The notes under the pieces are model-generated. The model ran no database searches. It was not told the origin of the DNA and saw only the letters and a list, made by a program, of their open reading frames with translations. From Podarcis muralis (Eukaryota), in contig NC_135673.1 in NCBI RefSeq assembly GCF_964188315.1, forward strand, positions 10,850,001-10,914,000: a stretch of DNA of 64,000 nucleotides. The letters are read 5' to 3'. How positions within the stretch are numbered: position 1 is the stretch's first letter; every line of letters starts with the position of its first letter. This document shows positions 1 through 56,308 of the stretch, one piece after another. A program made the translations under genes and the position numbers.

Positions 1-1950
1 CGTAACATTGTACAGGAGGCAGCAACGAAAACCATCCCAATGAAAAGGAAATGCAAGAAAGCAAAGTGGCTGTCCAACGAGGCCTTACAAATAGCGGAGG
101 AGAGAAGGCAAGCAAAATGCGAGGGAGATAGTGAAAGATACAGGAAATTGAATGCAGATTTCTAAAGAATAGCAAGGAGAGACAAGAAGGCCTTCTTAAA
201 CGAGCAATGCAAACAAATAGAGGAAAACAACAGAATGGGAAGAACCAGAGATCTGTTCAAGAAAATTGGAGATATGAAAGGAACATTTCGTACAAAGATT
301 ACCATAATAAAGGACAAAAGTGGTAAGGACCTAACAGAAGCAGAAGACATCAAGAAGAGGTGGCAAGAATACACAGAGGAATTATACCAGAAAGATATGG
401 ATGTCTCGTACACCCCAGGTAGTGTGGTTGCTGACCTTGAGCCAGACATCCTGGAGAGTGAAGTCAAATGGGCCTTAGAAAGCACTGTAAATAACAAGGC
501 CAGTGGAAGTGATGGTATTCCAGCTGAACTATTTAAAATTTTAAAAGATGATGCTGTTAAGGTGCTACACTCAATATGCCAGCAAATTTGGAAAACTCAG
601 CAGTGGCCAGAAGATTGGAGAAGATCAGTCTACATCCCAATCCCAAAGAAGGGCAGTGCCAAAGAATGCTCCAACTACCGCACAATTGCACTCATTTCAC
701 ACGCTAGCAAGGTTATGCTTAAAATTCTACAAGGAAGGCTCAAGCAGTATGTGGATCGAGAACTCCCAGAAGTGCAAGCTGGATTTAGAAGAGGCAGAGG
801 AACCAGAGACCAAATTGCAAACATGCGCTGGATTATGGAGAAAGCTAGAGAGTTCCAGAAAGACATCTACTTCTGCTTCATTGACTATGCAAAAGCCTTT
901 TACTGTGTTGACCACAGCAAACTATGGCAAGTTCTTAAAGAAATGGGAGTGCCTGATCACCTCATCTGTCTACTGAGAAATCTCTATGTGGGACAAGAAG
1001 CTACAGTTAGAACTGGATATGGAACAACTGATTGGTTCAAAATTGGGAAAGAAGTACGACAAGGCTGTATTTTGTCTCCCTGCTTATTTAACTTATATGC
1101 AGAATTCATCATGCGAAAGGCTGGGCTGGATGAATCCCAAGCCGGAATTAAGATCGCCGGAAGAAATATCAACAACCTCAGATATGCAGATGACACAACC
1201 TTGATGGCAGAAAGTGAGGAGGAATTAAAGAACCTTTTAATGAGGATGAAAGCGGAGAGCGCAAAATATGGTCTGAAGCTCAACATCAAAAAAACGAAGA
1301 TCATGGCCACTGGTCCCATCATCTCCTGGCAAATAGAAGGGGAAGAAATGGAGGCAGTGAGAGGTTTTACTTTCTTGGGCTCCATGATCACTGCAGATGG
1401 TGACAGCAGCCACGAAATTAAAAGACGCCTGCTTCTTGGGAGAAGGGCAATGACAGGCCTAGACAGCATCTTGAGAAGTAGAGACGTCACCTTGCCAACA
1501 AAGGTCCGTATAGTTAAAGCCATGGTTTTCCCAGTAGTGATGTATGGAAGTGAGAGCTGGACCATAAAGAAGGCTGATCGCCGAAGAATTGATTCTTTTG
1601 AATTATGGTGCTGGAGGAGACTCTTGAGAGTCCCATGGACTGCAAGAAGATCAAACGCATCCATTCTTAAGGAAATCAGCCCTGAGTGCTCACTGGAAGG
1701 ACAGATCGTGAAGCTGAGGCTCCAGTACTTTGGCCACCTCATGAGAAGAGAAGACTCCCTGGAGAAGACACTGATGCTGGGAAAGATGGAGGGCACAAGG
1801 AGAAGGGGGCGACAGAGGGCAAGATGGTTGGATAGTGTTTTCGAGGTTACCAGCATGAGTTTGACCAAACTGCGGGAGGTAGTGGAGGACAGAGGTGCCT
1901 GGCGTGCTCTGGTCCCTGGGTTCACGAAGAGTCGGACACGACTAAACGAC

Positions 1951-1990
<40 letters not shown>
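1..1990 (+). mobile_element. BovB (RTE clade) LINE, 3' part, running off the window start
   Basis: Frame 1 is open from position 1 apart from a single TAA at 163-165. ORF 235-1953 has RT motifs (KAFxCVDH, RQGCILSP, LRYADD) and a BovB-type C-terminus (WCWRRLLRVPW, RRRGRQR). It ends in GAGTCGGACACGACTAAACGACT plus a (CAA)n tail to 1990. Confidence 0.97.
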
Positions 1991-9224: not shown

Positions 9225-9480
9225 CATCAGATAAATTCTTTATTCAGGACCAAATAAACTGCACAAAATGATAAGCAAGTTTTTCAAAACTATTCATTGG
9301 ACAGGATGTTAAGCAACGAAACAGTGAAAAGCGAGAGGAATAGAGAAACAGTCGGTGAATTACAGTTCCTAGGATTTTTTGAAGGAAGCCATGACAGTTC
9401 TAAGAGTATGACCTTAGGGCAATCTATAGTGTAGATTTAAGTCCAGGTAACAGTGAATAGAAACTGATGTCTGGGGAAAA
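9225..9480 (-). mobile_element. Decayed Penelope-like pLTR remnant with a degenerate hammerhead-like segment
   Basis: The minus strand reads cctgtccaatgaatagttttgaaaaacttgc...ggtcctgaataaag. This resembles the recalled PLE motif cctgatgaagagttc...gaaagcttgc...aataaag. The extent is uncertain. Confidence 0.4.
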
Positions 9481-9656: not shown

Positions 9657-10973
9657 CTAGAATTTATTCCATCTAAACTTGGAACTCTTTCTAGGGAATT
9701 GTTTTTCAAGTATGTTGTTAACATTATTAATCAAAGAAACATTGTATCTCCAGATCGTTGTGTCCCTAATGAGGTATTTTCCAGGGACCTCTTTTTCAAC
9801 ATACTGTCTGCAATGATAAAGAATTGCAATCTCTTTGGGAACTACCAGCGTCTTACTATAACCTTTGAGAATGGTGTGGACTGAAGTCTGAACCACTGCT
9901 CTTGGATTAACGATCATCTTTCTCTGATTACTAAACTTCAGTTTAATGGGCTCTCTGTAAATATGCTGCAGTATATTAGTTCCTGGGACCATTTTCCAGG
10001 ATGAAATGTTGAGTGTGTCTGTAGAGGAAAAGATATGCTGAGGAAATAAATGGTTCTCAAACAAGAAGATGCCTGTCTCTGGATTTCGATCCTCAAGATC
10101 GCTTACCATTGTTTTCCAACTCAGATGCTTAATGGGTAGGATAATTTCATCAATGTCATTAAGAACCACATATTTGCTCCTGTACATATTGCGGTAGATG
10201 CAATCATTTAGGACTGTAGCTTTCCCATAGTCCCAGTCTTTGGAAGAATACCAGAAAGAAGAGAAATTAACATATGAGAAAATTGGCCATGGAATAATAT
10301 CAATGGTGCCTTCTGCAACATAAAATTCCAATACTTTCTCTATGAGTTGGCTGCAGTTGTACATGTAGACCAGCACTTTCTGTGCACCAAGAATTTTATA
10401 CATTTCCATGCTTTGTATGAACTGCAAGACATTGCTGTAGTTTCCAAACATGACAGGGAGACAAAGGGTGAATTCAGCAGAAAATGAATCCTCGGGCACA
10501 CGGTTCTTAATTTCAAACCTTGGTAGCTTGTCGATTTTCCCTCTAGGAGATGAATGAATTGACACGTATTTTGGAGAGCACTTTCTGGGTTCCAAGCACA
10601 CGATATCTGCTGGACCAAAAGGGAAATCAGTTCTATCCAAGTGAATGTCTATGGCTGCTCTTATTATGGAGACGTGGCCATCATGACTACAGCAAAACCA
10701 ACAATAAAGGTCCTGTATTTTCTTGTAGCGCACTACTGCGATCACACGAGTTAGGTTTCCTTCTCTGTCATCATGATATGGTGAAATGATAAATGTTTTA
10801 TTATATTTTAAAGCTGTTATTGTACCATTGGCAATCTCACCTTTGCAGAGATCCGTTGACTGTATTGTTTGTGGCAGCAAAGGCGTTTGCATCAGCCACA
10901 AGTATGCTTCAAAGGACAGTACAATTAGAAAAGAAACTACCACCATAAAATTGTTTCTTCTACAGAAATACAT
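9657..10973 (-). CDS. Glycosyltransferase family 92 (DUF23), beta-1,4-galactosyltransferase GALT-1/beta4GalT(Gal)-like, 438 aa, coding sequence in one exon
   Basis: Intact ORF with type II membrane topology: short basic N-tail then TM VVVSFLIVLSFEAYLWLM. GT92 motifs LTLCLPVMFGNY, KVLVY..NCS, LNDCIYRNMYRSKYVVLNDIDEIILP (DxD) and C-terminal LYHCR. Eight N-x-S/T sequons. Confidence 0.9.
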   Translation of the reverse strand: MYFCRRNNFMVVVSFLIVLSFEAYLWLMQTPLLPQTIQSTDLCKGEIANGTITALKYNKTFIISPYHDDREGNLTRVIAVVRYKKIQDLYCWFCCSHDGHVSIIRAAIDIHLDRTDFPFGPADIVCLEPRKCSPKYVSIHSSPRGKIDKLPRFEIKNRVPEDSFSAEFTLCLPVMFGNYSNVLQFIQSMEMYKILGAQKVLVYMYNCSQLIEKVLEFYVAEGTIDIIPWPIFSYVNFSSFWYSSKDWDYGKATVLNDCIYRNMYRSKYVVLNDIDEIILPIKHLSWKTMVSDLEDRNPETGIFLFENHLFPQHIFSSTDTLNISSWKMVPGTNILQHIYREPIKLKFSNQRKMIVNPRAVVQTSVHTILKGYSKTLVVPKEIAILYHCRQYVEKEVPGKYLIRDTTIWRYNVSLINNVNNILEKQFPRKSSKFRWNKF

Positions 10974-11001: not shown

Positions 11002-11030
11002 CTGTAACTGAAATGGAAAAGCAGGGAGAG
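11002..11030 (-). promoter_or_regulatory. Splice acceptor just upstream of the GT92 start codon (implies a non-coding 5' exon)
   Basis: The minus strand reads ctctccctgcttttccatttcagttacag|GCACTTTG..., a polypyrimidine tract with two AGs 6 nt apart. The proximal AG is 28 nt before the ATG. Confidence 0.65.
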
Positions 11031-11759
11031 AATGTTATTATCAACTTACTCAAAACCAAGAAACCAATTTTAAGGAGACTTAGAAAGATGCTTAACAAGG
11101 CCTTAAAATATTGAATAATTGTGACACTGGAATACATGCCAACTCATAATGATGATATTATGTGTGATCAGATCTCCCATATATGAAATATCTTCTCACA
11201 CTCCCTAACCATAAATTAGTCCAGTTTAGTTCCTCACACTCCTACTAAGGGGGACTTTGCTTTATCCTCCTGGAGAGGATGGGAGTGGGGAGTGATTTAA
11301 ATAAGCTTCCCTTCTGCTATAAATGACCCCCCCCCTTTACTTTCTGTATCTCCTCCCTCCTCCCCAACACCAATAAATGTGGGATAATTCTTCTATACTG
11401 TACAGTATAGACAAAAAGACAATATCATCCCTGCCCAAACAAGACAAGTTACTCCAGCTTTATAGATGAGCTCTCTGACCCATGTTAAAAAGCTATCCCT
11501 TACCCCAAATAAAAAGTTATTAGCTAGCGCCATACTTATTTATGTGGGTTTCTCTCATCCCCCCTCCTAGTCTGTGAGAAATACCTCTCAACTCTTGCAA
11601 ATTCGGGATTTTCTGTCTCTCCCCCCCACCCCCAGCACCTATTCATAAAGGGTTCCTATCCGTTTTCCTTTCAAAATGGCGTTTGGTCATTCCTGCTACT
11701 ATTAATAAAGTTACCACACGGTCCCCAAACTGGTAAGGGGATGGCACCCCCCACTCCAT

Positions 11760-12440
11760 TAATATGCGCGCTTCCCTTCCTTGTTCATGGATCCAGGACC
11801 CACCCCCCAATATACAAAGTGTGTTTGTGGTGGTGGGGGACGTGTTTCCCCAGCTATAGAAGGTTGTTGTGATCTGCTCTCCTCTCCCCCCATAACGAGG
11901 GAGCGTATTCTTCACCAACAGAATGGGGGGGCGGGGGCGGTTAGAATTACCTCTTATACAAGGATTTGTCACGAAGCGGGAAGAAAGCGCGATTTAAAAG
12001 AAACTTAAGACCTGCTCCTTCCTGCCCTCCTACCTCCCAGCACTTTAAGGCCTCTGAGGACAGAAAGAAAAGGCGGGAAGCGTCCCTTTAACTGCATCCT
12101 GAGGGGATTTTTTTTTTTTAAGGCTGCAGTTAAAGGGACGCTTCCCGCCTTTTCTTTCTCTTCAAGTCATCTTTCCCCTGAAATGGCTCCTGGGCGAGTG
12201 CGATGGAAAGAAAACGGACATATCCGTCTAGGGAGCAAAAAGACAACAACACAAATGAACAATCTTCTTCAAGGTAACAGTTTAAAATAGATCAAAAAGT
12301 TAACTGTTTTTAGACTGTGAATATGACCTCCCCTACATGGCGCGCGCGCACCAGGAGTGGGGAACCCTGCCCTCAAGATAGCAGTTTAAATAGATTAACA
12401 CGTGTAACGACGACGACGGTGGATAAACGGATCAAGAAGG
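11760..12440. promoter_or_regulatory. CpG-enriched segment, candidate promoter / first exon of the GT92 gene
   Basis: About 30 CpGs counted by eye in about 700 bp, well above the flanks. Contains a GC box-like gggggcgg, ggcgcgcgcgca, and a minus-strand donor-like GAG|gtaatt at 11951/11950. Confidence 0.4.
12062..12159. repeat. Near-perfect inverted repeat (39-bp arms, 1 mismatch, 20-nt spacer)
   Basis: 12062-12100 agaaagaaaaggcgggaagcgtccctttaactgcatcct versus the reverse complement of 12121-12159. Confidence 0.95.
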
Positions 12441-13322: not shown

Positions 13323-13961
13323 GCCATCACCTCCTGGCAAATAGAAGGGGAAGAAATGGAGGCAGTGAGAGATTTTACTTTCTTGGGCTCCATGATCACT
13401 GCAGATGGTGACAGCAGTCATGAAATTAAAAGACGCCTGCTCCTTGGGAGAAAGGCGATGGCAAACCTAGACAGCATCTTAAAAAGCAGAGACATCACCT
13501 TGCCAACAAAGGTCCGTATAGTAAAAGCCATGGTTTTCCCAGTAGTGATGTATGGAAGTGAGAGCTGGACCATAAAGAAGGCTGATCGCCGAAGAATTGA
13601 TGCTTTTGAATTATGGTGCTGGAGGAGACTCTTGAGAGTCCCATGGACTGCAAGAAGATCAAACGCATCCATTCTGAAGGAAATCAGCCCTGAGTGCTCA
13701 CTGGAAGGACAGATCCTGAAGCTGAGGCTCCAATACTTTGGCCACCTCATGAGAAGAGAAGACTCCCTGGAAAAGACCCTGATGTTGGGAAAGATGGAGG
13801 GCACAAGGAGAAGGGGACGACAGAGGACGAGATGGTTGGACAGTGTTCTCGAAGCCACCAGCATGAGTTTGACCAAACTGCGGGAAGCAGTGGAAGACAG
13901 GAGTGCCTGGCGTGCTCTGGTCCATGGGGTCACGAAGAGTTGGACACGACTAAACAACAAC
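13323..13961 (+). mobile_element. 5'-truncated BovB LINE
   Basis: Highly similar to 1315-1960, with an open frame and a (CAA)n tail. 9-bp TSD aatctgagg at 13314-13322 and 13962-13970. Confidence 0.97.
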
Positions 13962-14731
13962 AATCTGAGGAACCCAGCACTATAGAGCACAGTAGGAGTA
14001 GGCCTGAGGCGGAAACCTGCCAGTTCCCAGTCTTCAATCATTCAGTGTTCCCACCCTAAGTCTACTTTAATAATTTGACTGAAAGGATTAATGCATTCAC
14101 CTTGATAAGCCTGTTTGGACTTCCCCCTCTCAGAACACTCAGATTCACTTAACCAAAACACTAGTTTTATTATTGTAACCCATAAGATCTGTGCTGTATG
14201 AGGCCAAAGGTTAATCTAGTCCATCCTGTTTTTGTAGTGGCCACTTAGATGCCTCTGGTAACTCGCACTTGTGATTCCCGGTAACACATTCAGAAAGCAT
14301 GGTGCCTCTGAAAGTGAAGGGAGAATGCAAAGTATAATTTAGCTACAGAAATAAAAGCAAAATGATGCCCAATACTTGCCTATAATTGGCACAGTGAGAA
14401 AACAGTGTTTACTAGGTTACAGAAAAACTACACATGAACTGAAGGAGCTACCTTATGCTGAGTCAGACCTTTTTTAGAGCAACATTTTCTGTGTCTTTTG
14501 TATTGGTGGAACCCAGAGTTGTCCAGTCATGTTGAATGGTGGGAGATTCAGGATGGAGACAGCATACAATTAAACTATGGAATGTATTAACACAAAGATG
14601 TGCTGATACTCACCAACTTAAGACTGCTTAAAGCAAAGTATAAAGTATAAAGCAAAGTATAAAGCAAAAGGGGAATGCCTGTTTCTCTTTCAGTATAATT
14701 TGTTCTAGTCAGGTCAAGTCAGGAGTGTATT

Positions 14732-20809: not shown

Positions 20810-20839
20810 TTATTCAAATGACATAAGGTTTGCAGGTAC
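20810..20839 (-). CDS. RALGPS1: RALGPS1 last coding exon (VPANLMSFE*)
   Basis: ag|GTA CCT GCA AAC CTT ATG TCA TTT GAA TAA, matching the recalled RALGPS1 C-terminus. Confidence 0.95.
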   Translation of the reverse strand, partial: VPANLMSFE

Positions 20840-21228
20840 CTGGCAGAGAAAAGTAAACTGGTCAGTACAATGAATGGTCAGCCTATCATGGATAGAAGAC
20901 GTCAGCATCCCAGGGCAGTGGAAGTGCTCACGCAAAAAGAAAAAAAGGAAGTTATAAATTGGTTCTACATCTATAAAAGCTATTTATTTATTTAAACATA
21001 AGAAAACCAGAGGAAATTGCATATACCAGCAATAGTTTCATCAACCAGGAATGTATGATTAACAGCTTCATGCGTGGTCTGAGTGATTTGCTGCATGTTC
21101 TGAAATCATTAACCAGAGTAGCTGAGTTTGCTTTCTCCCCTCCTCACCCCAATCCCTTTTCTGTGGTGTAAATTGTAAGCCTGAGCGTGGGGACTTCTTT
21201 ATTTTTGATATCTGAAAATGGTTCTGGA

Positions 21229-21358
21229 CAGTGATATTTTTCTAGAAAAAGAGGTGCCGGAACTCACCATGAATGCCTCCCTTGTTCTCTTATAATGGCG
21301 CTCACCTGAGAGGTGCCAGAACTGAGTTCTGGTGAGTTCCGGCTGAAAAAAAGCCCTG
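21229..21358. mobile_element. hAT-type MITE
   Basis: TIRs cagtgatatttttc / gaaaaaaagccctg, internal gccggaactc / gagttccggc repeats, and a degenerate 8-bp TSD (gttctgga / gcttagga). Confidence 0.7.
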
Positions 21359-22026
21359 GCTTAGGAAGTCTTTTTGGCTGAAGAGCAGGGTAAAAATCTT
21401 CTCAGACCAAGAGTAAGAGTACTTTAACAGAGAAACCATGGGCTGCACACTGAATTAAATTTCCATATCATAAATTAAAATGTTTGCAATATAGTTAGTA
21501 TTGCATAGTTAGCGAGTAGTTGGGCCGGGCTCAGGTCCTCTCAATGCTCCTTATGTGTAAGGGGCTTTGATGCAGCAACATCTCCTTCCCCTTGCCCCCT
21601 GCTCTAAAATCACATTCAGCTGCCAGAGTCAAGGAAGCAAAAGTGTGGTGTGCATGTGACACATTATTAGGCGGAACACCCTGGGGAGCACCAGGCAGAG
21701 TGCCTCTTGCCGGGAAGGGGGTGTAGTAAAGCATTTTTTTAAAGGAAGGGGCAAGGCGCATAGAGACAGGTGGGATCAAAGCATGGTGTGGCAAATTAAC
21801 ATCTCTCCACCACAAGACATAAGAAACTGCGTGAAGACATGGGACAGTGATTATGTGTTGCCTTACCTACTAGCCATCACTTGGTACCTGCTCTGCTCAG
21901 GGCAGATTCCAAGCTCTATAGAGCAACTTTTTTACTATACAGTCCTGCAGAAAAGAGCAGCTTCCCCCACAACCCTCGTGGATGAATAAAAATAGCCAAG
22001 ACCACTGTCAAGCCGACTGCTTCTTA

Positions 22027-22331
22027 AAGGTAAAGGTAAAGGTACCCCTGCCCGTATGGGCTAGTCTTGACAGACTCTGGGGTTGTGCGCCCATCTCACT
22101 CAAGAGGCCGGGAGCCAGCGCTGTCCGCAGACACTTCCGGGTCACGTGGCCAGCGTGACAAAGCTGCATCTGGCGAGCCAGAGCCGCACACAGAAATGCC
22201 GTTTACCTTCCCGCTAGTAAGCGGTCCCTATTTATCTACTTGCACCCGGGGGTGCTTTCGAACTGCTAGGTTGGCAGGCGCTGGGACCGAGCAACGGGAG
22301 CGCACCCCGCTGTGGGGATTCGAACCGCCGA
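22027..22331 (-). mobile_element. 5'-truncated Sauria SINE
   Basis: (ACCTTT)n tail, truncated just upstream of the B box. 8-bp TSD gcttctta at 22019-22026 and 22332-22339. Confidence 0.95.
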
Positions 22332-22795
22332 GCTTCTTACTCTTCCCTTGAAAAAGGCAGTCTGGAGGTAGCAGGCCCAAGGGTGCTGTAGCTGAGCTTG
22401 GTGATAAGATGTTGACATTGTTGCTGAGGGGTGCCAAAAAAAAGGCCTTGTGACCTGTGTGTTGAACTACACTGCTTTAAATATATAAATAATAGTTGTC
22501 TCCAACTATGTTCTACTCGGAGTAGACCCACTGAAATTAATGAATCTAAGTTAGCCTTGCCCATTAATTTTAATGGACACACTTGAAATAAAACTAATAT
22601 CGGTTACAATTCATACAATAATATTTTACACCATTTGCAAACAATGCAATTTTGGGGAAACTTTGAGAGCTCAGATGCAGGTGGTGTAAGCACTCCTAAT
22701 TTGCCTAGGGCTTTTGTTGTGGTTATAACCCCGTTCTAAAAGTTTCCACATGGCTACTATTTTAGCTTCAAACAGAAACAGAAGAAAAACCTTAC

Positions 22796-22887
22796 CTGAG
22801 GCCTGTTGCTTCTGCATGCGTCATCCAAATGTTTGTGCCACAGTATTGCATGAAACCTTGAACCAGTCTGAAACTTGTAAACATTGC
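22796..22887 (-). CDS. RALGPS1: RALGPS1 exon, PH domain end ([31 protein letters not shown])
   Basis: 92 nt, ag/gtaagg boundaries, phase 1 to 0, and a near-identical recalled peptide. Confidence 0.97.
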
Positions 22888-23476
22888 CTACAAGTTAAAA
22901 ATATAAGGTAAGAAGGAACCCTTGAGCTTTGGAAGAAACAGAACAAGATGCTGAAAGGTTTAAAAAAGCCAACAATTTATCTGGTAAGAGAGAAGATCTT
23001 GGTAATGACCAGTTTGGGTGACCACTGAAGAACCTTAGTCTGAAATGTCAGAGTACTCAAAAGAGTGAGTACGAATAGATCAGAACACCAACCAGTCTAA
23101 AAATCTTAACCAGCCTCGCTGTCTTTGTTTCTACTGAGTAAAGCTGGTAGTTTAAGAATGTATTCAGTATTTACCTTGTTGATTTATAAGAGCTGGGGGA
23201 TATACTGTTTAGCATGCTGAAGCAGGAGCAGCTTATTGACTCCTGCCTTGCCAGTTTTCATAGCAGGCTAGCTGGACAGGCAATGAAATAGTGGTGGTAC
23301 TTTACATAGGCAATTATGAAAGAATCTGAAACTTGTGTTGCGGGTGGAAACCCAGCACCTTTTTGTTGCTGAGGAGTGTTTAATGGAGGGGTGAGGAAAG
23401 TTTTTCAACATGAGGGCTGTGTTCCCTTTTGGGGAACCTTCTGCGGGGTCACATGTTAGTATGGGCAGGGCAAAAG

Positions 23477-23701
23477 CATACCCTCCAACATTTCTCCGAT
23501 AAAAATAGGGACTTCATAGTAATAATTTTACGATTTATACCCCACCCATCTGGCTGTGTTGCCCCAGCCACTCTGGGCAGCTTTCAACATATATAAAAAA
23601 GCATATATAAAAGCAGGACGTTCTAGGGTCAAATCAGAAACTGGGATGGCTTCTGTAAATCTGGTACTGTCCCTGGAAAATGGAAACACTTGGAGGGTCT
23701 G
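23477..23701 (-). mobile_element. Composite MITE (CATACCCTCCAA / CAGACCCTCCAA ends) carrying an L2 tail, internally deleted, nested in an older hAT fragment (about 23385-23995)
   Basis: Termini cataccctccaac ... cttggagggtctg with a 6-bp TSD caaaag at 23471-23476 and 23702-23707. Contains ccatctggctgtgttgccccagccactctgggcagc. Confidence 0.8.
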
Positions 23702-24099
23702 CAAAAGTGGGCAAAGCAATGGATGTGACTATTACTATGTACAGACATTCCAGCCACACAAAAGCCAGGGCTTCACACCCAAACACCCACCTTTCAATCC
23801 TTCATCCCAGCAAACATTATCAGACACATTTAAATGAGGCAAAAGCACTTAAGGAAGCTGTAGAGGAGAAGTAGTGAAGGGTGTGGCTTGGTGAGAGGGG
23901 TGTGGCCTGCAAAGGGGAACAGCTTAGATAAGAGAGGGCTGGAAGATTGCATTCAATCCTCAGACCTGATGTTTCCTACACCCGTTTTAACAGATCCTGA
24001 TCGTTTCCTTTGCATTTTACAGTTTTGAAAGTAAATTGAATTATAAACAGCATTTTTTCTGAATGCTCCCATGTGGGTATATACCCGTCAGCCAAGGAT

Positions 24100-24175
24100 A
24101 ATGCTTTATATTATCTGATGAAGTAGACTCTAGTACAGTACACAAAAGCTTGTGCTACAGGGCTTTTGGTTGTTT
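24100..24175 (+). other. Degenerate Penelope-type minimal hammerhead ribozyme relic
   Basis: CTGATGA at 24115-24121, then agtagac-tcta-gtacagtacac and cAAAAgcttgtgc where the intact motif would have cGAAAgcttatgc. Confidence 0.5.
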
Positions 24176-24481
24176 TAACAAAAGCATAGTAAATGATGGT
24201 GTGCGGTCATTGGATTAAGGGGACTAGGCTAGTCCCCTAAATGTTCCCCTGGCGCCTCCTTCACAAAGCCTGGGAAATTTCTACTTGGCTTAGGGAGGGA
24301 GGCATGATGCTCACGTGTGCAACGTCACATGCATGACATTGACACCCCAGACAAGCTAGTGCCTCTGGCCTTAACTGTTCCCCTCTGAAAAATTTCGCCG
24401 CATGCCACTGATAGGAAAGCTTACTGTTACTTAGCACACTTAATGTTCTGAAGAAAGTCCAATTAAAAATAAAACACCCAC

Positions 24482-24587
24482 CTTTATCTGGGTTATTTAG
24501 CTGAAAAATATCAGGGTGTTCAGGGTCATCAGGCAGTGCTACCATCCAGCCCACAACAGAAACCTTTTTCCCCGGAGTAGATTTATA
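24482..24587 (-). CDS. RALGPS1: RALGPS1 exon, PH domain ([35 protein letters not shown])
   Basis: 106 nt, ag/gtgggt boundaries, phase 0 to 1. The peptide [18 protein letters not shown] distinguishes RALGPS1 from RALGPS2. Confidence 0.97.
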
Positions 24588-24639
24588 CTAAAAGAGAGAA
24601 AAAGTCAAGGAAGAATATCAATGAGCTGAATTGTGAAGT

Positions 24640-24760
24640 ATAGGCGACTCCCGACTTACGCAGAGGTTGCATTCCGGGCTCCTTATGCATAACTGAAATG
24701 TGTGTAAGTGGGGAGCACCCTTACGTAAGCGGGGAGTCCATTTGTGGCTTGTGAGGAGGC
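24640..24760 (+). mobile_element. Tigger-like MITE left end
   Basis: ta|taggcgactcccgacttacg resembles a CAGG.AGTCCCCGACTTACG TIR, with repeated cttacg/cgtaag motifs. Confidence 0.5.
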
Positions 24761-25192
24761 CCTCCTCAGAACCCAAAGAGGATGTCCTCTGGGGAGAATC
24801 TCCTCCCAAGCCAGAGGCACAGTGGGGCTTTTTTGAGCTGCTTAGCTGACATGTGGGAAAGCTTCCCCATAAGTCAGCTGAGCAGCCTCAACAAAGCCCC
24901 GCTGAGGAGACACTTCCTAGAGCCCAAAGAGGACATCAGCTGAGCAGCCCTGCACATCAGCTGTTAGGTGGGGAGCCACAAGGACTCTCCAGGGTACTCC
25001 CACTTCCAGGTTCCATTTCCAGCTTCCTGGCACCAGGCATGTACACAATAGCATGCAAGTTGGGAGTTGCCTTTATTCTGCTACCCTGGGCTGCTTTGTG
25101 TTTTTGTGAATACTGCAGCCAATTGATTCTCTGAAACAATTGCAGATAGGATGTGCACTTGGTCTACAAAATAAGGCAAATTATTTGCTTAC

Positions 25193-25285
25193 ATGCTTTC
25201 TTTCAGTGCCTCTTAATGACTTTGCTCCAAAGTAGATCAGAGTAGATCCTGAAAGGGTTACCCAATATCTAGTCCAGGAGGAAAG
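25193..25285 (-). CDS. RALGPS1: RALGPS1 exon, PH domain ([31 protein letters not shown])
   Basis: 93 nt, cag/gtaagc boundaries, phase 0 to 0. Confidence 0.97.
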
Positions 25286-26599
25286 CTGAAAGGAGGAAAT
25301 TAAAAAAACTTTCAAAAGCATACATAAATTTCCAGAACTAACATGAAAGAAGGTGAGATGCTTCAGACATGCTATCAACTATGAGGCTGCATTTGCTGTG
25401 AAGAAAACCCAGCTATTCTGCCTTCACTTTGAAAAACAAGGTTATGTGCTGTCCCCTGCTGGTGGTGATGGATGCATTACAGCTCAGTAAGTCAGCTCCA
25501 GTCAGAATGATAATAAATGCACTTCAAACCTTTAGTATCAAGCAATGGCATTTTCACAAAAGGCCATGAGGAAATGTAGTGGTATGCGGGGCAAAGCCTA
25601 AAGGCCTGAGTATCCTTTCCTCTCCTACGGAATGCGAAAAATAGCAGATATGTACTCTTTGTTTTGTACTCTTTCTTGTACATGTCTGCCTTTCTCCTCC
25701 CCCCCCACCCTCTTGAAGGCAGTGAAAATTACTGCCAGTAGGAAATAGTTGCTATATAAGAAAGAATCCTTGGCCTAAAACTCTTCCATTCCCCCCAAAC
25801 CAATGCCATTTCATATATTCTCAGTGTTTTTTTCTGGGGGTACATAAGGGTGCACATTATTGGCACCTTTTTTCTAGAAAAAAAGCTTATGGGGAGGAGG
25901 GTTCCAGGGTGCGGAATATAACCTGGTTTTGAAATTTAAACAAAAGTTCTATATGGTGTAGGATGCATGGTGGCAGATTCTTTTCTTTGGGTGTTTCCAT
26001 GAGCATCTCTTAAAACAGCAGCCAGATCTGGAACCCATATTTAGCCCAACCTGCAACACATTTGATCATATGCCACCAACCCTAGTCTGCCCCAGCCAGC
26101 CAACACCTGTCTGTCTTACAACTTGCAACTAGTCCAGGTAGTGTCTTCTGGCTGTCAGTTTCCATCTGAGTCTCATGCTGCTCTTGTAGAAGTCAGCAGG
26201 GAGGAGGACAAAACTGTAGAGTTACCTGGATCTGTCCTTAGTGCTGGTTCCTACTATTGGGCCTCCCTGCTTTCCATCCTGCCTGTCCCAATGGGAATCG
26301 GGCACCTCTATTGGCACTATGTGCAACCATTGTAGGTTTGGTCATGACACACTTGTAAGAAGAACATCAGAACCGTAGAAAGGAGAGGGAGATACAGAGG
26401 GTTATTATGAAAGAGGGCACTGCAACAGGATGCTGGTTGTCCCTGTACTGTCCACTAGTTCAAATAGCATGTATAGCCTTGGAGACAGTTGTCTTAGGTT
26501 GAAAATGTTGTTGGTCAGTGCCAAGCCAGTAAATGGTAAAACAACAAGACAAGCATGCCAACCCATCTTGTGTTAAAGAAAACTGGTGGGATGAAACGG

Positions 26600-27060
26600 G
26601 GGAGGTTATTCTCTCTCAGCTCTGTCAACCTGGATTCGCTGCAGAACAGCATCCAAGTCTTGGGGGTTGAGGAGGCAGTGTTGCAGTGGGGCTATCATGA
26701 TTGCATCTCCCTGACCATGTGTCCTCTCCTGCAGTCTGCTCTGTTCAAGTGTGTTTATCCTAGTGAGGCTAGACTGGCCTCCTCCTTGTTGAATCTTCTC
26801 CTTGGCAGGTGAAGATTGTTCTATTCAGGCAGGCTTTCAGGAACTGGCTGCTTTTAAGGAAAATGGTAGTGTTTAAGTAATTTGTTCTTAACATTGTTTT
26901 AATTCCATTATTGTTTAATTACCTTGAAGGTAATTACTTTTATGTGTTTTTAGATTTCTGTGGTTTAGTTGTGCTCATTTCAATTTTTGTAAAGGTGCCT
27001 TAAGTCCGAGTTTTGGGGAAAAGGCAGGAAATAAATAAATATTATTAACAACAACAACAT
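26600..27060 (+). mobile_element. Decayed L2 (RT scrap plus 3' tail)
   Basis: An LGV..AVLQW-type RT remnant at about 26640-26690, then a 3' tail ending gagttttggggaaaaggcaggaaataaataaat. Confidence 0.55.
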
Positions 27061-27216
27061 GAGACATAGCCCATGGCTCTTTCTGTTCAGCCAGAGTTAG
27101 CTGCCATGCTGTTTTTGACACTCTACTGCTTTCTTTAGCAACCATAAAATATTATTCAAATTGTAATGAGGGGTTTAAAAGCATAAGCAAAGGGGGGGGG
27201 GAGGAGAACCCCTTAC

Positions 27217-27322
27217 TGTAGGCTTCCTGCCTTCTTTTAGTAATGTCTTTCTTCTTAATGGCCCTTCCATGGTAACAACCCCCACGGAACTCCCTGATGC
27301 GCAGCTGCAGGCACCTGTTGGA
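27217..27322 (-). CDS. RALGPS1: RALGPS1 exon, PH domain start ([35 protein letters not shown])
   Basis: 106 nt, cag/gtaagg boundaries, phase 2 to 0. Confidence 0.97.
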
Positions 27323-29644
27323 CTGAAATAACAAATGTCAACTCTTTGGTGGGAGCAAACAAAATCAAATAATCCAGTGATTAAATTGTTCAAAAAATTA
27401 CACAGGCCTTGGCTCGTGCCATCAATATTGTCCTAAACATTGGCTGCAGACTTCGTAGTTCATGACTAGTATTACAGTAAACAAGTTTTTAAAAAGAAAT
27501 TTAATGTAAGTTTTCCACTGAAGTGCATAAACAAGGACATTAGAAATAACCTCTTGGCATGAACCAGGAAGTAGCCTATGCAGACAATGAAATGGTTGTT
27601 TCTGCCCTTCAAAACAGCTTTTTTTAAAGGAAAGTTTTGGCTACACGAGCACAGGAAGACTAATTTGTATTAATATATAGATTTTAAAAAATAATAATAA
27701 AAAATTGGTAGACCTTTTTCAGATCATGTTACAATATGAACCATACAAGTAATCTGACCTTCTAACATAAAAAACAATGGAAACACAATAACCAGATTAT
27801 GATAACTGTGGACAGGAAACATGATTCTTTTTCACAACACAGAAGGAATCCTTAAAGAGACTGGTGGAGACAGTGTCAACCAGGAAAGAGACCAACATAT
27901 GGTAAAGTATGTCCTCCATCATATTGTGAGCTGGTGGAGGTTTAGAGATACGTGGCCAGTGTTGAGCCCATCATTCTTTGTCTTCTGCCATCCAATTAAG
28001 TTACTATGACTATTATGAATATAAATAAATACATTTTATGCACACTTCTTAAGAGATTTTTATTTTATTAAACAGTTTATGTATATTTTCCTAATAATGA
28101 ATGAATGAATGAATAAAATAAATAAATAAGTAAATAAATAAATAAATAAAGCTGTCATGCTACTGAATGCCAACTAAATGGTTTATGGATGCCAATATAC
28201 AATGCCAAGTGAATCATAAACCCTACTACATTATTAAATGAGTGCTAGCAGCCATCACATCCATTACTAAATACTTAAGTTAGATTCAGGAAGATTTAAC
28301 AGCAGGGAAATACTGATTGAGTTAGAAGCTTGCCCAGTAGGAATTTCCTACTTAATAAACATTCATTGCCCAGAACACTTCATAGTCCCATATCTATAAG
28401 GATGTCAAACACAAAGGGACCAATTCAAGCAGAAATATGTTTGCTTTCACTTAGTTCTAAGCAAACAGTAGAGTAGCTATTTCAGTCATGGGAAAGACAT
28501 GACAATAAATGCATATAGAACAAGCTAACTTGGGTTCTCTTTGACCTCATCTGCTAAGCCTATATGCAACTGGCCCCAATTCACAGCCCTGTGTGAACCA
28601 CCTTCAGATGAGCATGTGTTAACTGCACAAAGGACATGTGCCAAATTCCACAAGCTTGTGAATTAAACTGTGAGCGCTGAATCTGGGAATGGCAGTTGTT
28701 TGAACTGTAGCCTATTAATTATTAACATATTTGTATAGATAGTCCACATAACTATTTGTTTCTGTGTGCATTGGTTCAAGGCCATTATCTGAATACTTGT
28801 CCTTTTTCTTCTATTTCTCTCTTTCTCTATAAAACAAGGAGTCTTCTGCAATTATACTTCGAAGCTGAGCATATATAACACAGCAGACTGAGTGAATTGC
28901 TTTGGAAGGAAACTGGGTTTTGTACAGCAAACTGACACCTGCCATTTTTACAAGGTAAGTTTGTCTGTTAATGGTGTAACAGAGGGTGAGCTGTTATGAC
29001 TTGCCACAGTCTGAAGCCTTTGCTGCAAATTAACAAAGAGTCTTGTAAACTGATTATGGCAGAAACTCTTATGGGCCACAGCCCACTTCGTAAGATGTTT
29101 GGAGTATAATTCTGAGTGTCAAGAGAGAGAAACACCACACTTTTATGTGTAAATCAGCATACCTGCAATATCTCTTAGAAATCTGTCTTACCATAGATAT
29201 TCACTGAGTATCGTAGCAAATGCCAGGTGTATACAAATAGGATTTTTTGGAGATATTTATCAGAAAGTTACAAATATATGAAGAAATAAAAGCAGACAAA
29301 ATAAGGATTGAAATGGAAAATGCTTGAGAGAGATTATTTAGAAGGCTTGCATATCTGCTCACATCACCTTTGCTAGATTTCCCCCAAAGGCTGCACCAGA
29401 AAGCAAGCCTAGCGAAAAAAATCAGTAATTATGAAGAGGAATAGAAGACACTATAAAGAAGAATAGAAGAAGCCATGAGAAGATGCACTATAAAAAACTA
29501 ATATTTTCTTCTGGGTAACATTAAACAAACTTGTTAGAATGACTGCAAGATAATTTGCGTCAGTGTACTATTTCTTTCCAAGTCACATTTCTTTGCTTCC
29601 CACAGATATCAGTTCGATTTGAGGAGTTCTACAGGTGGAACTAT

Positions 29645-30000
29645 GGGACGCAGGTGGCGTTGTGGTCCAAACCACAGAGCCTAGGGCTTGCCGATCAGAA
29701 GGTCAGTGGTTCGAATCCCCGCGATGGGGTGAGCTCCCATTGCTCGGTCCCTGCTCCTGCCAACCTAGCAGTTCAAAAGCACGTCAAGTGCAAGTAGATA
29801 AATAGGTACCGCTCCGGCGGGAAGGTAAACGGCATTTCCGTGCGCTGCTCTGGTTTGCCAGAAGCGGCTTAGTCATGCTGGCCACATGACCTGGAAGCTG
29901 TACGCTGGCTCCCTTGGTCAGTAAAGCGAGATGAGCGCCGCAACCCCAGAGTCATCCGCAACTGCACCTAACAGTCCAGGGTTCCTTTACCCTTTACCTT
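29645..30000 (+). mobile_element. Full-length Sauria SINE, second subfamily
   Basis: gggacgcaggtggcg head, B box and acctt t tail. 12-bp TSD tacaggtggaac at 29630-29641 and 30001-30012. Confidence 0.95.
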
Positions 30001-30904
30001 TACAGGTGGAACCACAGGTATCAAGTTGTTTAATTACTCTAAAAGAGTTAAGTTGTTCTGCTATTCTTTTGTGTAAGAGGGTACTGAGGCACTTGGATTT
30101 TAGACCCCCTCTGTTTATTGAAGGAAATGCATGGTTTTTTAGGAAGTCATCAGAACAGCAAACTGAGTTGTGATGAGACTGGAAAAGGAAGCATCAACTT
30201 GAAACCCAGTGTAATTCATTACATAATAAGATAACAAAAGTTAAGCATAAGAAAATAGAGCTTCACCACGTGTATGTGTATTATTTAAACCAGAAACTGG
30301 TTTTAAAAATGAGAACCTCCCTTTAAATTATGGTATGATCCTATGAAAGCTAAGTTCTGTTCATTTCAATGGGACAGATAAAGTGCAGGGCTTTAATATA
30401 CACATATTCACACACACTGTTAGGTGGGGCTCTCCGTGAGTTCCCAACTAAGGTTCTTAGCAATTTATTATGCTGTTCTGCAGCATCAAAATGCTCCTAG
30501 AATATTCACTGGGCCCCAAGTTAAACATATGCTTAATATGCTTCAATTGAAATCAATGAAGCTTTAAAAGTGTTTAACTTTGTGGTGGTGCTGTTAATTA
30601 CCCTGCATTTCTCAGTATGATAAGGAAGAGGAACAGTCAGCACTTATATGAAGTATATTTATATGCAGTGTGGTATATAAATATGGTGAGGCTTATGAAG
30701 GTGAAAGCATATGAATGAACAATCTTCTTACTCCTGGCAACTCTTATGAGAATGGAAGGAAAGTCTTTGCACAGATGGAAGGAAACAATGAAAAAGCTGT
30801 TGAAAATAAGCTCTCCTAATTAGCAAGAGGAAAACAGACTGAAAATAGAATTAACACCACAGTCTAGGGAGAGACACACCAACCAACCAACCACCTAATT
30901 GTAC

Positions 30905-30985
30905 CTGTAGACACAGCTCCGACTTCTGGGAGAATTCCGAATTGGTACCCGCCAGTTGGGCCCCAGCGTGGCGTACAACCGACCC
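30905..30985 (-). CDS. RALGPS1: RALGPS1 81-nt frame-preserving (cassette-type) exon (RGRLYATLGPNWRVPIRNSPRSRSCVYS)
   Basis: Phase 2 to 2, acag acceptor and a weak donor AG|gtacaa. The peptide matches the insert recalled from long vertebrate RALGPS isoforms. Confidence 0.9.
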
Positions 30986-33900
30986 CTGTTTATAAATTTA
31001 CATGTAAGTTCTTTTCTTATAGTGCAGGTACTGTGGTAACATCCAACAAAACAAAGCATACAAGGAAACATGGGACACACATGTATTTGATGCTCTCAGT
31101 AATTGGAGAGGTGTATTTAGTGAAGGGCTGAATGCCCATTAAATAATGCTCATTTTAACACATAGGAACAAAGCAAGTAATGCTGAGCAAAAGAATATGG
31201 GGGCAAGAATCAAGTGTCTAAAAAGGAATTCAGAACCGATCTTTGTGATGCTGCTTCCATCTCACTGACTTTTGTAATGTTTATTGATCTTCTGAATGGG
31301 AATAAGAGAAGTTTTAGGAAAGTAGGATTTGTCCAATCATATCACAATGCAAAGCAGAAGAACCTTTAGAAATAAAAACATTAAGGCACTATCGTAAGAA
31401 CAGCTCTAGATGATCAGAACCAGCCAGGAACTGATTGCAGAGCATATGAAGTAATAATGAAGAGTATACTTCTAACCACACGAAGGATACATTTTCAGCA
31501 TTAATGAATAACATTAGCTAGCTCCAAAAAAATCAAGGTTTCAGGGATCAGGTGCAGTTGCTCACGAGGAGGCTGAAGCCCTGACATCTCTTTGAAAACA
31601 TTACTACTGGAGTCATGGATAAAAGTGTTATTTAATGCAATGCTTTGGCCCAGCAAAAAAAAAAAAAATGTTTGAAGAAAAGATGAAGCAATCTATTTGG
31701 GAAGACCGACTTAGTCTAAGGGCCCTGAAGGTTAGCCCCAAGCCTCCCCATCCAGTCATTCCTCCAACTCAGTTGTTGTGGCAAAATTTTTGGCTGCTTA
31801 GCTGAACCCTACTTAATGAAATTGTGCATGTTTGATTAGGTGAATGGGGCATGTGACTTTTCAGGAACGAAACAAGGTCCTTTAATGTTTGAATGTGAAA
31901 AGTATGCTATCATGAGCAACTAAATAGCTTTCATAGTCTTCAAACAGTTGTACACCTAAGTTAGTGTGGCACAACAAGCACTAATGGTATCATTGCACAA
32001 GGCATTCCAGTTATCTGCTAATATGCATACACACTATGCCAGAAATGTGAATCCTTGTTTTCTCTGGTAGAGTCAGGGGGCATTCTTCATCCTTTAAGCA
32101 TGTAACAGCACAATGCTTTAAGGTAGGACTCCAATAAAAGAAAATAATTTAAAGACCTCAGAACCCTCTGAAGAATTATCCACCCAAATGCCGCAACTGC
32201 TAAGGAAAAAGAATTGATTTTACAATATTGGACAGCCTATGTGATTGCCCTGTAAATTTCTTCCAGAGAAAATCTACCCCAGGCAGCAGCCATGATAACT
32301 GCCCCCTAAGAGAACAAACTGTAATCACCTGGGGAAGGGTACTTTCCCAGGGAGGGAGATGCCAATTCAGTGAAGACCTTCAGACTTTCTAAAAACCAAG
32401 GTCTTGCTCAAAAAGATGCCCAGGGTCCTAAACACATCCAACCTGTTTTCAGGTTTTCTTGTGCATATTTCAGACAGGAAGGCAGAATGTGGAACATATG
32501 GAACAGTAAGTTGACTTTGGGCAGAAAGGATGGGTTTCTCTCAACACAGCTTGTCAAGATGAAATAAGCCCAAATGTAGGATTTATTTTTTTTTAAATAG
32601 CACCCTTAGCTCTAAAACCAATCTGGTGAGGTATTGGCTAAAAATAAAGTTCTGAGAGAACTATGTTCATAATTTCTGATAGGTGGCTTCAGCAGAGCTG
32701 ACAGAACCCAGCTGAGGTTCTAGTTCAGGAACAGGTTGTCTGCAGACGGATTCATCAGCACTACCCCTTTAAGAAAATGTTTTATGTGTGGATGGCTGCA
32801 AAGGTTATCCTTTATACCAGAGATACTGTTGAGAACTGCTAACTGTCTTTTCAAAGTGCTGGTGCCGAGATATTTCTAGTCTGTTCTGTAAAAATTATAG
32901 AATGGACTGGATTTATGATTACAGCAGGCTATAAAATCTCTCCAGGAAGACTTGTAACTATGAACAAATGCTTAGATGCCAAAAGAGTTATCAGAGTAGC
33001 AAAAACAATTTAGCCACTTTTGCTTAACATCTATGCTGCCAGCTAGAATATGTGCAGTTGCTGTTGAAAAAATGGTCTCTCGGACATGATGTTCCAATGT
33101 TGTTTCATGGACATTTTGACTAGCTTTGAGAACCCCAGGCCTTTGGACCAGTGGAGTTCAACTGGTATAAATACCACTTTTCTTTCATCTTCCTGAGGAG
33201 CATAGAAATCAGGGTGAGAGAAGGAAAGCGCACACAGCTGGCCAGTCTATGTATTCTGATTCCACATACTGGCATTGTGATACAAAGCTTCTGACCTGTC
33301 TGTCTGTGGGTCTCCCAAAGGGCTGTGTCACCAGGTTGAATATTTGAGTGTTTGGACTTCTGGATGATGGTCCTGCTCAGTCACTCCATACCAGGTTATA
33401 TATGGCCCAAAACAATTACAGTGAAGGTCTCCTTATGGAGACTGTGTGGCTGAGTAACACCCCACCCCCTTGCATCCCACTGTTATATGTGTTTGTTGAA
33501 CTAATTGGATAAACACATGGTGACCCATAAGTTTTTCTAGAAGGCCAAAAGAGACAGTATGAAGCTCCAGGAAGTTGATGCTGTGTTGGCTTTCAGAGTA
33601 CTCCAGTTGCCCTGAGCCCCATGTGTGCTCCCCAATCTGACAGAACTGTGTGTGTAGTGATCTTCAGCCAGGTTATGTGGCCAAACTCACCCCTATTCTC
33701 TAACAGCCTATTCCCTAACAACCACCTGTCCAGTGACTTCCTCACCCTGCCTAGAATGGGAAACAATCAAATCTGGCAAGTGCTTTCTTCTTGAAAGGAA
33801 GGGAGGATGGAATGTATACAAGACCACTCCACAACATTCTGTAATTGGACTCTCAGTCCTAGGGAGAAGTCCTCAACTTCTTTGTGAAAATTTCCATAGT

Positions 33901-34229
33901 GGTAGCCTTTTTTGTCTCTTTCAGCAAAGACAATCAAAAGCTTATAGTAAACTCAGTTCTACTTAGAGTAGACTCACTGGAAGTAATGAACCTAAGTTAG
34001 TCATGCATGTTAATTTCAATGGGTCTACTCTGAGTATGAAGAGCAGGGACTATGCAAATCTTCTCTGTATTGCTCCAATTTTAGTTTATGTGCTGCCCAA
34101 ACAAGCACAAAAAATATGGAATGGTTCACAAATTTGCATGTTGCTCACATGTGCCCTGTGGCCCATCTGTGTCAGGAATCCAATACCTTCAGGGGTTTTT
34201 TGTCATCTCCCTACCTTAAGAATTTGACT

Positions 34230-56138: not shown

Positions 56139-56308
56139 NNNNNNNNNNNNNNNNNNNNNNNNNNNNNNNNNNNNNNNNNNNNNNNNNNNNNNNNNNNNNN
56201 NNNNNNNNNNNNNNNNNNNNNNNNNNNNNNNNNNNNNNNNNNNNNNNNNNNNNNNNNNNNNNNNNNNNNNNNNNNNNNNNNNNNNNNNNNNNNNNNNNNN
56301 NNNNNNNN
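56139..56308. other. Assembly gap (170 N)
   Basis: Run of N. Confidence 1.

What the first reader, a model, noticed from the sequence alone, without database searches (positions are those of the whole stretch)
9657..10973. Intact GT92 galactosyltransferase gene directly downstream of RALGPS1: an uncharacterised reptile glycosylation activity
Seen: an undisrupted 438-aa type II membrane protein with a DxD motif and 8 sequons, in a TE-dense neighbourhood where the repeats have decayed, which suggests purifying selection. Known: CAZy GT92 includes C. elegans GALT-1 (Gal-beta1,4-Fuc on N-glycan cores) and pigeon beta4GalT(Gal), which makes Gal-beta1-4Gal. Homologs occur in fish, amphibians and birds but not mammals, and I recall no such gene between human RALGPS1 and GARNL3. 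Inference: lizards may display non-mammalian Gal-beta1-4Gal type epitopes relevant to pathogen, toxin or egg-coat recognition. This locus marks either the mammalian loss site or a lineage-specific relocation (single coding exon).
Basis: partly seen in the sequence, partly recalled or inferred. Interest (0 to 1): 0.7.

Follow-up and report, generated by a model that had tools for sequence, protein, structure and literature searches.

The report
Squamate glycosyltransferase with remodelled active site
This is a real wall-lizard gene of a known sugar-transferase family, but it belongs to a lizard-and-snake-only copy whose active site differs from its bird, turtle and frog relatives, so it likely builds a different sugar linkage or has become a non-enzyme.

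Summary
The ORF is real (minus strand, 438 aa, GT92/PF01697, GalS1-like fold), is already annotated 'galt-1-like', and follows RALGPS1. The site is shared with birds and probably turtles, so it is no lizard relocation, and a 2013 paper already names an anole homolog and the epitope hypothesis.

(1) A second, canonical GT92 lies 18 kb downstream, outside the window. It is the better candidate for the bird-type Gal-beta1-4Gal synthase.
(2) The window's gene belongs to a squamate-only clade (support 100/100) with a shorter active-site loop and Lys (40 of 41) where all 296 other homologs have Gln.
(3) In that clade the second DxD Asp and two conserved histidines decay repeatedly (kept in 22, 30 and 12 of 41 sequences). 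The lacertid copy keeps all three.
(4) An in-frame 234-nt intron inside the 'single exon' removes most of the N-terminal accessory domain; the splice is seen in one RNA-like run.

The two copies were detected in different samples. Best reading: a neofunctionalised Golgi glycosyltransferase with changed substrate pocket; a pseudoenzyme is a close rival. No activity was tested.

The parts
9657..10973 (-). GT92 gene A, 438-aa ORF (P0001), member of the squamate Lys clade
10887..10961 (-). N-terminal helix aa 5-29 with the predicted type II membrane anchor
   Evidence: hydropathy; model
10509..10796 (-). N-terminal beta-rich domain aa ~60-155, within the range aligned to GalS1, whose N-terminal domain is CBM95 (likely acceptor binding)
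   Evidence: (aligned range 57-426)
10607..10840 (-). In-frame 234-nt intron inside the coding exon (exitron), GT..AG; removes aa 45-122 and gives a 360-aa isoform
   Evidence: splice sites; annotated isoforms; spliced contig in run X1
9741..10475 (-). GT92 catalytic GT-A domain, aa 167-411
10221..10253 (-). Remodelled loop aa 241-251: four residues shorter, Lys251 in place of the otherwise invariant Gln
10146..10157 (-). D273-I-D275-E276 motif, intact here; D275 lost in 19 of 41 clade sequences
9876..9878 (-). His366, aligned to a conserved GalS1 His (likely the catalytic base; assignment recalled); intact here
   Evidence: alignment
9813..9815 (-). His387, likely the metal-binding C-terminal His; intact here, lost in 29 of 41 clade sequences
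   Evidence: alignment
9239..9244 (-). AATAAA signal; the transcript contig of X1 ends at 9250
11585..11646 (-). Annotated alternative upstream coding exon (isoforms X1/X4), spliced to an acceptor at 11008/11007; this joint was not seen in the runs laid
20810..38688 (-). 3' exons of RALGPS1 (PH domain and last coding exon); its 3' UTR runs to an AATAAA near 16535

Best explanation
This is a transcribed GT92 gene of a squamate-only paralog lineage with a shortened active-site loop and Lys for an otherwise invariant Gln; it likely encodes a Golgi glycosyltransferase whose donor or acceptor pocket has changed, so that it would make a linkage other than, or less efficiently than, the bird-type Gal-beta1-4Gal. 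Shown: ORF, family, clade, residue pattern, tandem canonical neighbour, exitron splice, and detection in different samples from the neighbour. Predicted: type II topology and GalS1-like two-domain fold. Inferred: a tandem duplication before the turtle-squamate split freed this copy, and the loop and Gln>Lys change arose once in the ancestor of skinks, lacertoids and toxicoferans. In lacertids the intact D273/D275/E276, K352, H366 and H387 would still bind Mn2+ and a UDP-sugar. In snakes, iguanians, anguids and skinks the metal ligands and sometimes the His base decayed, so those copies would be metal-free or inactive. The neighbouring canonical copy would be the ordinary Gal-beta1-4Gal synthase. 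Exitron splicing would switch between forms with and without the accessory domain.
For: Clade: 19 of 124 rows form one clade, SH-aLRT 100. It holds at 100/100 with the diagnostic columns dropped, sister to two turtle proteins at 99/97; holding it together with birds is rejected, p-AU 0.009 (44 of the 124 rows). Residues: position 251 is Gln in 235 of 276 de-duplicated sequences and Lys/Glu in the other 41 (40 K, 1 E), all of this clade, and Gln in 61 of 61 further frog/fish rows. The loop has 8 residues in 15 of 19 against 12 in 103 of 105. The clade keeps D273 41/41, E276 41/41, G250 41/41 and K/R352 41/41, which suggests a pocket still in use. P0001 keeps D275, H366, H387 and R389. Fold: GalS1 is the best match over both domains, Z 29.3, rmsd 3.3, 329 residues (Foldseek 1e-21). 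Selection: 6 synonymous and 6 non-synonymous changes, ratio about 0.26, p=0.02, from the 12 listed ORF differences (23 rows of the table were hidden). Expression: A present and B absent in X1; B present (525 reads, one strand) and A absent in X23. PMC7185993 (passages) reports GT-A families that stay active after losing DxD or C-His, using basic side chains or water.
Against: No activity was measured, and the pigeon enzyme's own sequence was not obtained (birds, including a ground dove, served as proxy). The role of the Gln rests on a weak sequence alignment to GalS1 (E 0.2) and on recall; the GalS1 paper was not held. Across the clade, 26 of 81 otherwise invariant columns erode in three or more rows, against 3 and 6 in two sibling squamate clades, with many different replacements at H387. 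That looks like loss of catalytic constraint and favours the pseudoenzyme rival, though the Lys clade is also somewhat more divergent overall (66% against 72-74% mean identity). The lacertid copy may have kept its ligands by chance. The exitron form had the higher contig depth in X1 (65.9 against 22.5, a poor measure) and folds with less confidence (pLDDT 70 against 85). The counts include isoforms and close relatives and are not independent events. Gene conversion among tandem copies could distort the deeper tree.
Confidence: 0.45

Rival explanations
1. Pseudoenzyme lineage: catalysis was lost with the loop and Gln>Lys change, and the protein is kept as a glycan-binding, scaffolding or regulatory Golgi protein, as COSMC is for T-synthase. 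The catalytic residues then decayed at random, least in lacertids.
For: D275 kept in 22, H366 in 30 and H387 in 12 of 41 clade sequences, against 235/235, 234/234 and 234/234 ungapped canonical rows and 61/61. The losses fall in separate branches (snakes, Sceloporus, Anolis sagrei, skinks, pleurodont iguanians). The first-strand loop 173-177 also erodes. The ORF stays intact, one cluster per species among the listed hits. Precedent in GT31: PMC7185993.
Against: The window's own protein, Zootoca and Rhineura keep D275, H366 and H387 across a split dated about 150 MYA. D273, E276 and K251 are near-invariant in the clade. A and its neighbour were detected in different samples, which argues against an obligate chaperone for that neighbour.
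Confidence: 0.35
2. One reading: an ordinary co-ortholog of pigeon beta4GalT(Gal) that makes Gal-beta1-4Gal on lizard glycoproteins.
For: 55-60% identity to bird proteins; 94 of 96 columns conserved at 95% or more are matched; the metal ligands are intact; all characterised GT92 enzymes named in the papers read transfer beta-1,4-Gal.
Against: Invariant Gln and Tyr248 are replaced and the loop is shortened; the clade is separate from the bird genes; a fully canonical, expressed copy sits next door.
Confidence: 0.16
3. A decaying duplicate or retrocopy without function.
For: Nearly intronless ORF; no reads on the ORF in 3 of 3 raw RNA runs of the same species label (6-12% of each run read, tissues unknown).
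Against: Intact orthologs from skinks to snakes, dN/dS about 0.26, spliced transcript. The neighbouring copy has the same single-ORF layout, so the layout looks ancestral.
Confidence: 0.04

Closest known systems
Pigeon beta4GalT(Gal) and other vertebrate GT92 proteins (Suzuki & Yamamoto 2010, not held; described through PMC3602017)
   Same: Same family, length, type II layout and genomic site (bird gene models join RALGPS1 exons to GT92); 55-60% identity to bird proteins.
   Different: Separate paralog clade; Gln>Lys and a loop four residues shorter; metal ligands and His decay in relatives; exitron isoform. Activity unknown.
Populus GalS1 (GT92 + CBM95; PDB 8D3T/8D3Z)
   Same: Best structural match over both domains (Z 29.3); D-x-D-E, Lys and two His align.
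   Different: 14% identity; GalS1 extends plant galactan, has the Gln, and its CBM95 binds RG-I (PMC11062476).
COSMC (C1GALT1C1), GT31 pseudoenzyme chaperone
   Same: Duplicate of an active GT-A enzyme kept while its catalytic motifs decay (PMC7185993).
   Different: Different family. The lacertid copy keeps its DxD, and no partner or chaperone role was shown.
C. elegans GALT-1, GTNT-1, BAH and SRF GT92 proteins
   Same: Same Pfam family and TM + GT92 layout; their loss alters toxin or pathogen sensitivity (PMC13520123).
   Different: Distant. The database name 'galt-1-like' is a similarity label, not evidence for Gal-beta1,4-Fuc synthesis.

Membership tests
CAZy GT92 / PF01697 | Profile match above the curated cut-off | tested here: met
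   120.7 bits against cut-off 23, aa 167-411
CAZy GT92 / PF01697 | Type II layout: N-terminal membrane helix, stem, luminal domains | tested here: met
   one hydrophobic segment aa ~7-30, helix 5-29 in the model; predicted, not localised
CAZy GT92 / PF01697 | N-terminal beta domain plus GT-A fold as in GalS1 | tested here: met
   Z 29.3, model 57-426; the 360-aa isoform lacks most of the N-terminal domain
CAZy GT92 / PF01697 | D-x-D-E motif and the two conserved C-terminal histidines | tested here: met
   D273, D275, E276, H366 and H387 present in P0001; not met in many orthologs
CAZy GT92 / PF01697 | Inverting beta-1,4-galactosyl transfer from UDP-Gal | not testable with these tools
   needs an assay
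Pigeon-type beta4GalT(Gal) | Groups with the bird genes | tested here: not met
   Lys clade plus birds rejected, p-AU 0.009; the pigeon sequence itself was not in the tree
Pigeon-type beta4GalT(Gal) | Canonical G-Y-Y-G-Q loop shared by tetrapod GT92s (feature defined from my alignment, not from a paper) | tested here: not met
   Lys251, Asp248 and an 8-residue loop; the neighbouring copy B meets it
Pigeon-type beta4GalT(Gal) | Makes Gal-beta1-4Gal on N-glycans | not testable with these tools
   needs an assay and glycomics
GT-A pseudoenzyme (COSMC-like) | Loss of DxD and catalytic base | tested here: not met
   intact in the window's protein; partly lost in snake, iguanian and skink orthologs
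GT-A pseudoenzyme (COSMC-like) | No activity, and a role as partner of an active paralog | not testable with these tools
   needs assays; the two copies were detected in different samples

The most novel reading that the evidence does not exclude
Skinks, lacertoids, iguanians, anguids and snakes have kept, for more than 150 million years, a GT92 pseudoenzyme (or a metal-free enzyme in which the new Lys replaces the metal) that is caught at successive stages of catalytic decay: intact ligands in lacertids, C-His lost in toxicoferans, DxD and His base lost in some snakes and iguanians. In lacertids it is Z-linked and an exitron switches its accessory domain off.
Probability: 0.33. Interest if true: 0.7.

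Novelty: new variant of a known kind. Interest (0 to 1): 0.45.

Why it matters
That lizards have GT92 genes is ordinary and in print. The remodelled clade matters because it is a natural series in which one glycosyltransferase active site is rebuilt and then loses metal ligands in parallel lineages, with a canonical control next door in the same genome. Assays on the pair would show what the invariant Gln and loop do in GT92, and whether reptiles make Gal-beta1-4Gal (left open in PMC3602017). They would also show whether squamates have a glycan of their own or a new pseudoenzyme. For anyone testing the reptile epitope, the practical point is that the neighbouring copy, not this one, is the better candidate.

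Tried and rejected
Relocation to a lizard-specific site: rejected by bird fusion gene models and turtle SLC2A8-isoform names; these are annotation by-products, not genome alignments.

Further or broken GT92 copies: only 2 in the genome, and no remnant in 364 kb around the window by HMM.

Homodimer with Mn: no answer, score 0.00 against mark 0.32; no evidence either way.

Run search: no RNA holder listed on record; the evidence comes from the lays only. X21, X23 and X24 gave no reads on the ORF. X1, X2 and X7 gave no contig on copy B.

Sequence search of the PDB gave only a weak GalS1 match (E 0.24 and 0.22). The Atlas added only GT92 clusters. The L009:8443-8862 exon had no Pfam hit; a second exon matched Sugar_tr.

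Papers not held: Suzuki & Yamamoto 2010, a 2019 Glycobiology review, Prabhakar 2023. Any of them may bear on novelty or residue roles. Literature searches listed nothing on a divergent squamate GT92 clade; others were swamped by generic terms and are weak tests. No earlier findings of this scan.

Mammalian absence could not be tested beyond the listed hits: 341 of 461 and 394 of 514 were not shown.

Full report
Observation. The interval 9657-10973 is a complete 438-codon ORF on the minus strand. It has one N-terminal hydrophobic segment, 8 sequons and D-I-D-E at 273-276, and matches PF01697 at 1e-34. The best named hit is 99% identical and annotated 'beta-1,4-galactosyltransferase galt-1-like' in Podarcis raffonei. 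Isoforms named Podarcis muralis lie on a contig of the same length as ours, so this is an annotated wall-lizard gene. An AlphaFold model (pLDDT 85) matches poplar GalS1 over both domains (Foldseek 1e-21; Z 29.3, rmsd 3.3 over 329 residues, next-best protein Z 11.9).

Neighbourhood. RALGPS1 PH exons lie upstream on the same strand (29/31 and 34/36 identical to PDB 2DTC), with the stop at ~20810. A second GT92 (B, 441 aa, 50-52% identical) lies at C19:10840625-10841947, about 18 kb past A; these are the only two matches in the genome. Beyond B come an F-box gene (+), a sugar-transporter gene (-) and a RapGAP gene (+). I read these as FBXW2, SLC2A8 and GARNL3; the names are recalled from sequence motifs. 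The human order RALGPS1-GARNL3-SLC2A8, with FBXW2 megabases away, is recalled. If right, the GT92 site coincides with a rearrangement in mammals, which is compatible with loss there but does not show it. Two bird gene models (crane, thrush) join RALGPS1 PH exons to GT92 domains, and sea-turtle GT92 proteins are filed as SLC2A8 isoforms, so the site is likely ancestral for reptiles and birds. Fibrinogen-domain exons nested in RALGPS1 about 117 kb away are likely ANGPTL2, which PMC6534595 (passages) uses as a Z-specific marker in lacertids; Z-linkage is therefore inferred.

What is known. PMC3602017 (part 1 of 6 and passages) reports homologs of pigeon beta4GalT(Gal) in fish, frogs and green anole, says the reptile epitope remains to be clarified, and proposes pathogen or toxin recognition. 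No mammal appears among the 120 listed hits (of 461) or (of 514).

A distinct clade. In an alignment of 124 proteins, the window's gene and 18 others carry Lys (one Glu) at position 251 and mostly a W-x-Y-G-K loop of 8-9 residues, where the other 105 have Gln and a 12-residue loop ending G-Y-Y-G-Q. The 19 form one clade (SH-aLRT 100) with one cluster per species from skinks, lacertoids, an anguid, iguanians and snakes, and no gecko among the listed hits. With the loop and motif columns removed, a 44-row tree keeps the clade at 100/100 and places two turtle proteins, which have canonical motifs, as its sister (99/97); a tree holding the clade with birds is rejected (p-AU 0.009). The deeper branching is unresolved in that tree. 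Copy B belongs to a canonical squamate clade.

Active-site erosion. Among 276 de-duplicated sequences of 330-620 aa, the 235 with Gln keep D275 and E276 in all, and H366, H387 and K352 in all but one truncated row. The 41 clade sequences keep D273, E276 and G250 in all, but D275 in 22, H366 in 30 and H387 in 12, with seven different replacements at 387 (isoforms and near relatives included). A further 61 frog and fish rows keep all of Q, D, D, E, K, H, H. As a control, of 81 columns invariant in 60 reference rows, 26 depart in three or more rows of this clade, against 3 and 6 in two sibling squamate clades (mean identity 66% against 74% and 72%). These positions align with GalS1's Q, D-V-D-E, K and two His (a weak alignment). 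PMC11062476 (passages) says GalS1 uses a histidine base and an N-terminal CBM95; which His it is, I recall and could not read. PMC7185993 (passages) gives the general roles of DxD and C-His, with both metal-free (GT14) and pseudoenzyme (COSMC) precedents. The window's own protein is the least eroded: it keeps D275, K352, H366, H387 and R389. From memory, Lys at this helix start contacts the donor in GT2 enzymes; I did not test that correspondence.

Transcripts. Annotated 360-392-aa isoforms in P. muralis, P. raffonei, P. lilfordi and Lacerta agilis lack aa 45-122, which corresponds to a 234-nt GT..AG intron with strong sites at 10840-10607. Contigs of run X1 (a related species, RNA only guessed) cover the ORF, end near the AATAAA, and show exactly this joint at depth 65.9, against 22.5 for the retained form (contig depth is a poor measure, one sample). 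A turtle sister isoform starts its deletion at the same residue and removes 100 aa, so the donor may be old. The short form is predicted with less confidence (pLDDT 70; the other four models 53-58). Three raw RNA runs of the same species label gave no reads on A. One of them (X23) gave 525 mostly single-strand reads on the stretch holding B, while X1 and X2 had no contig on B. The two copies therefore look differently expressed; tissues are unknown. Twelve listed ORF differences between X1 and the window split 6 synonymous to 6 non-synonymous (ratio about 0.26, p=0.02), with no listed indel in the ORF.

Mechanism. Most likely (0.45) A is a neofunctionalised Golgi GT92: it would still bind Mn2+ and a UDP-sugar in lacertids but with a changed pocket, while B supplies the ordinary Gal-beta1-4Gal activity. 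A lineage-wide pseudoenzyme is a close rival (0.35), an ordinary pigeon-type enzyme less likely (0.16), and a dead copy unlikely (0.04). All statements on activity are inference.

Novelty. The family, the reptile homologs and the epitope idea are known. I found no description of the remodelled squamate clade or the exitron in searches, but three key papers were not held and several searches were weak. PMC13520123 and PMC13558309 were seen as passages only. No supplements were read. Verdict: new variant of a known kind, interest 0.45.

Noticed in passing
G000:C19:10840625-10841947 (L002:1477-2802, minus strand): Canonical GT92 paralog B, 441 aa, all motifs intact, expressed in run X23; the better candidate for a lizard Gal-beta1-4Gal synthase.
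   Followed up: yes
window 235-1953 (+) and 13356-13985 (+): LINE reverse-transcriptase frames, BovB/RTE-like by recall; the first is an open 572-aa frame with a full RVT_1 domain, so probably a young copy.
   Followed up: partly
G000:C19:10763515-10820855 (L013, L009, L007): Order GARNL3-like (+), SLC2A8-like (-), FBXW2-like (+) differs from the recalled human order; a likely mammalian rearrangement point next to the GT92 pair.
   Followed up: partly
G000:C19:10977971-10980993 (+): ANGPTL2-like exons nested in RALGPS1; angptl2 is a lacertid Z marker, so both GT92 genes are likely Z-linked.
   Followed up: partly
proteins P0061-P0118 (geckos, skinks): Geckos and skinks carry expanded sets of canonical GT92 copies, several per species on contigs of one length, while this genome has two. 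Many members of one canonical squamate clade have swapped Cys95 and Cys132 for His and Trp.
   Followed up: no
protein P0258 (Naja naja): A 936-aa gene model fuses a canonical GT92 to a Lys-clade GT92, which suggests a further canonical copy upstream of A in snakes that is absent here.
   Followed up: no
protein P0271 (Mauremys reevesii): Turtle sister paralog has an isoform lacking 100 aa from the same starting residue as the lacertid exitron.
   Followed up: partly
window 11005-12327: X1 contigs run unspliced through the annotated upstream acceptor and on to ~12.3 kb at low depth; the 5' end of the gene is unsettled.
   Followed up: no
window 56139-56308: A run of 170 N, the only one in the window, far from the finding.
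   Followed up: no
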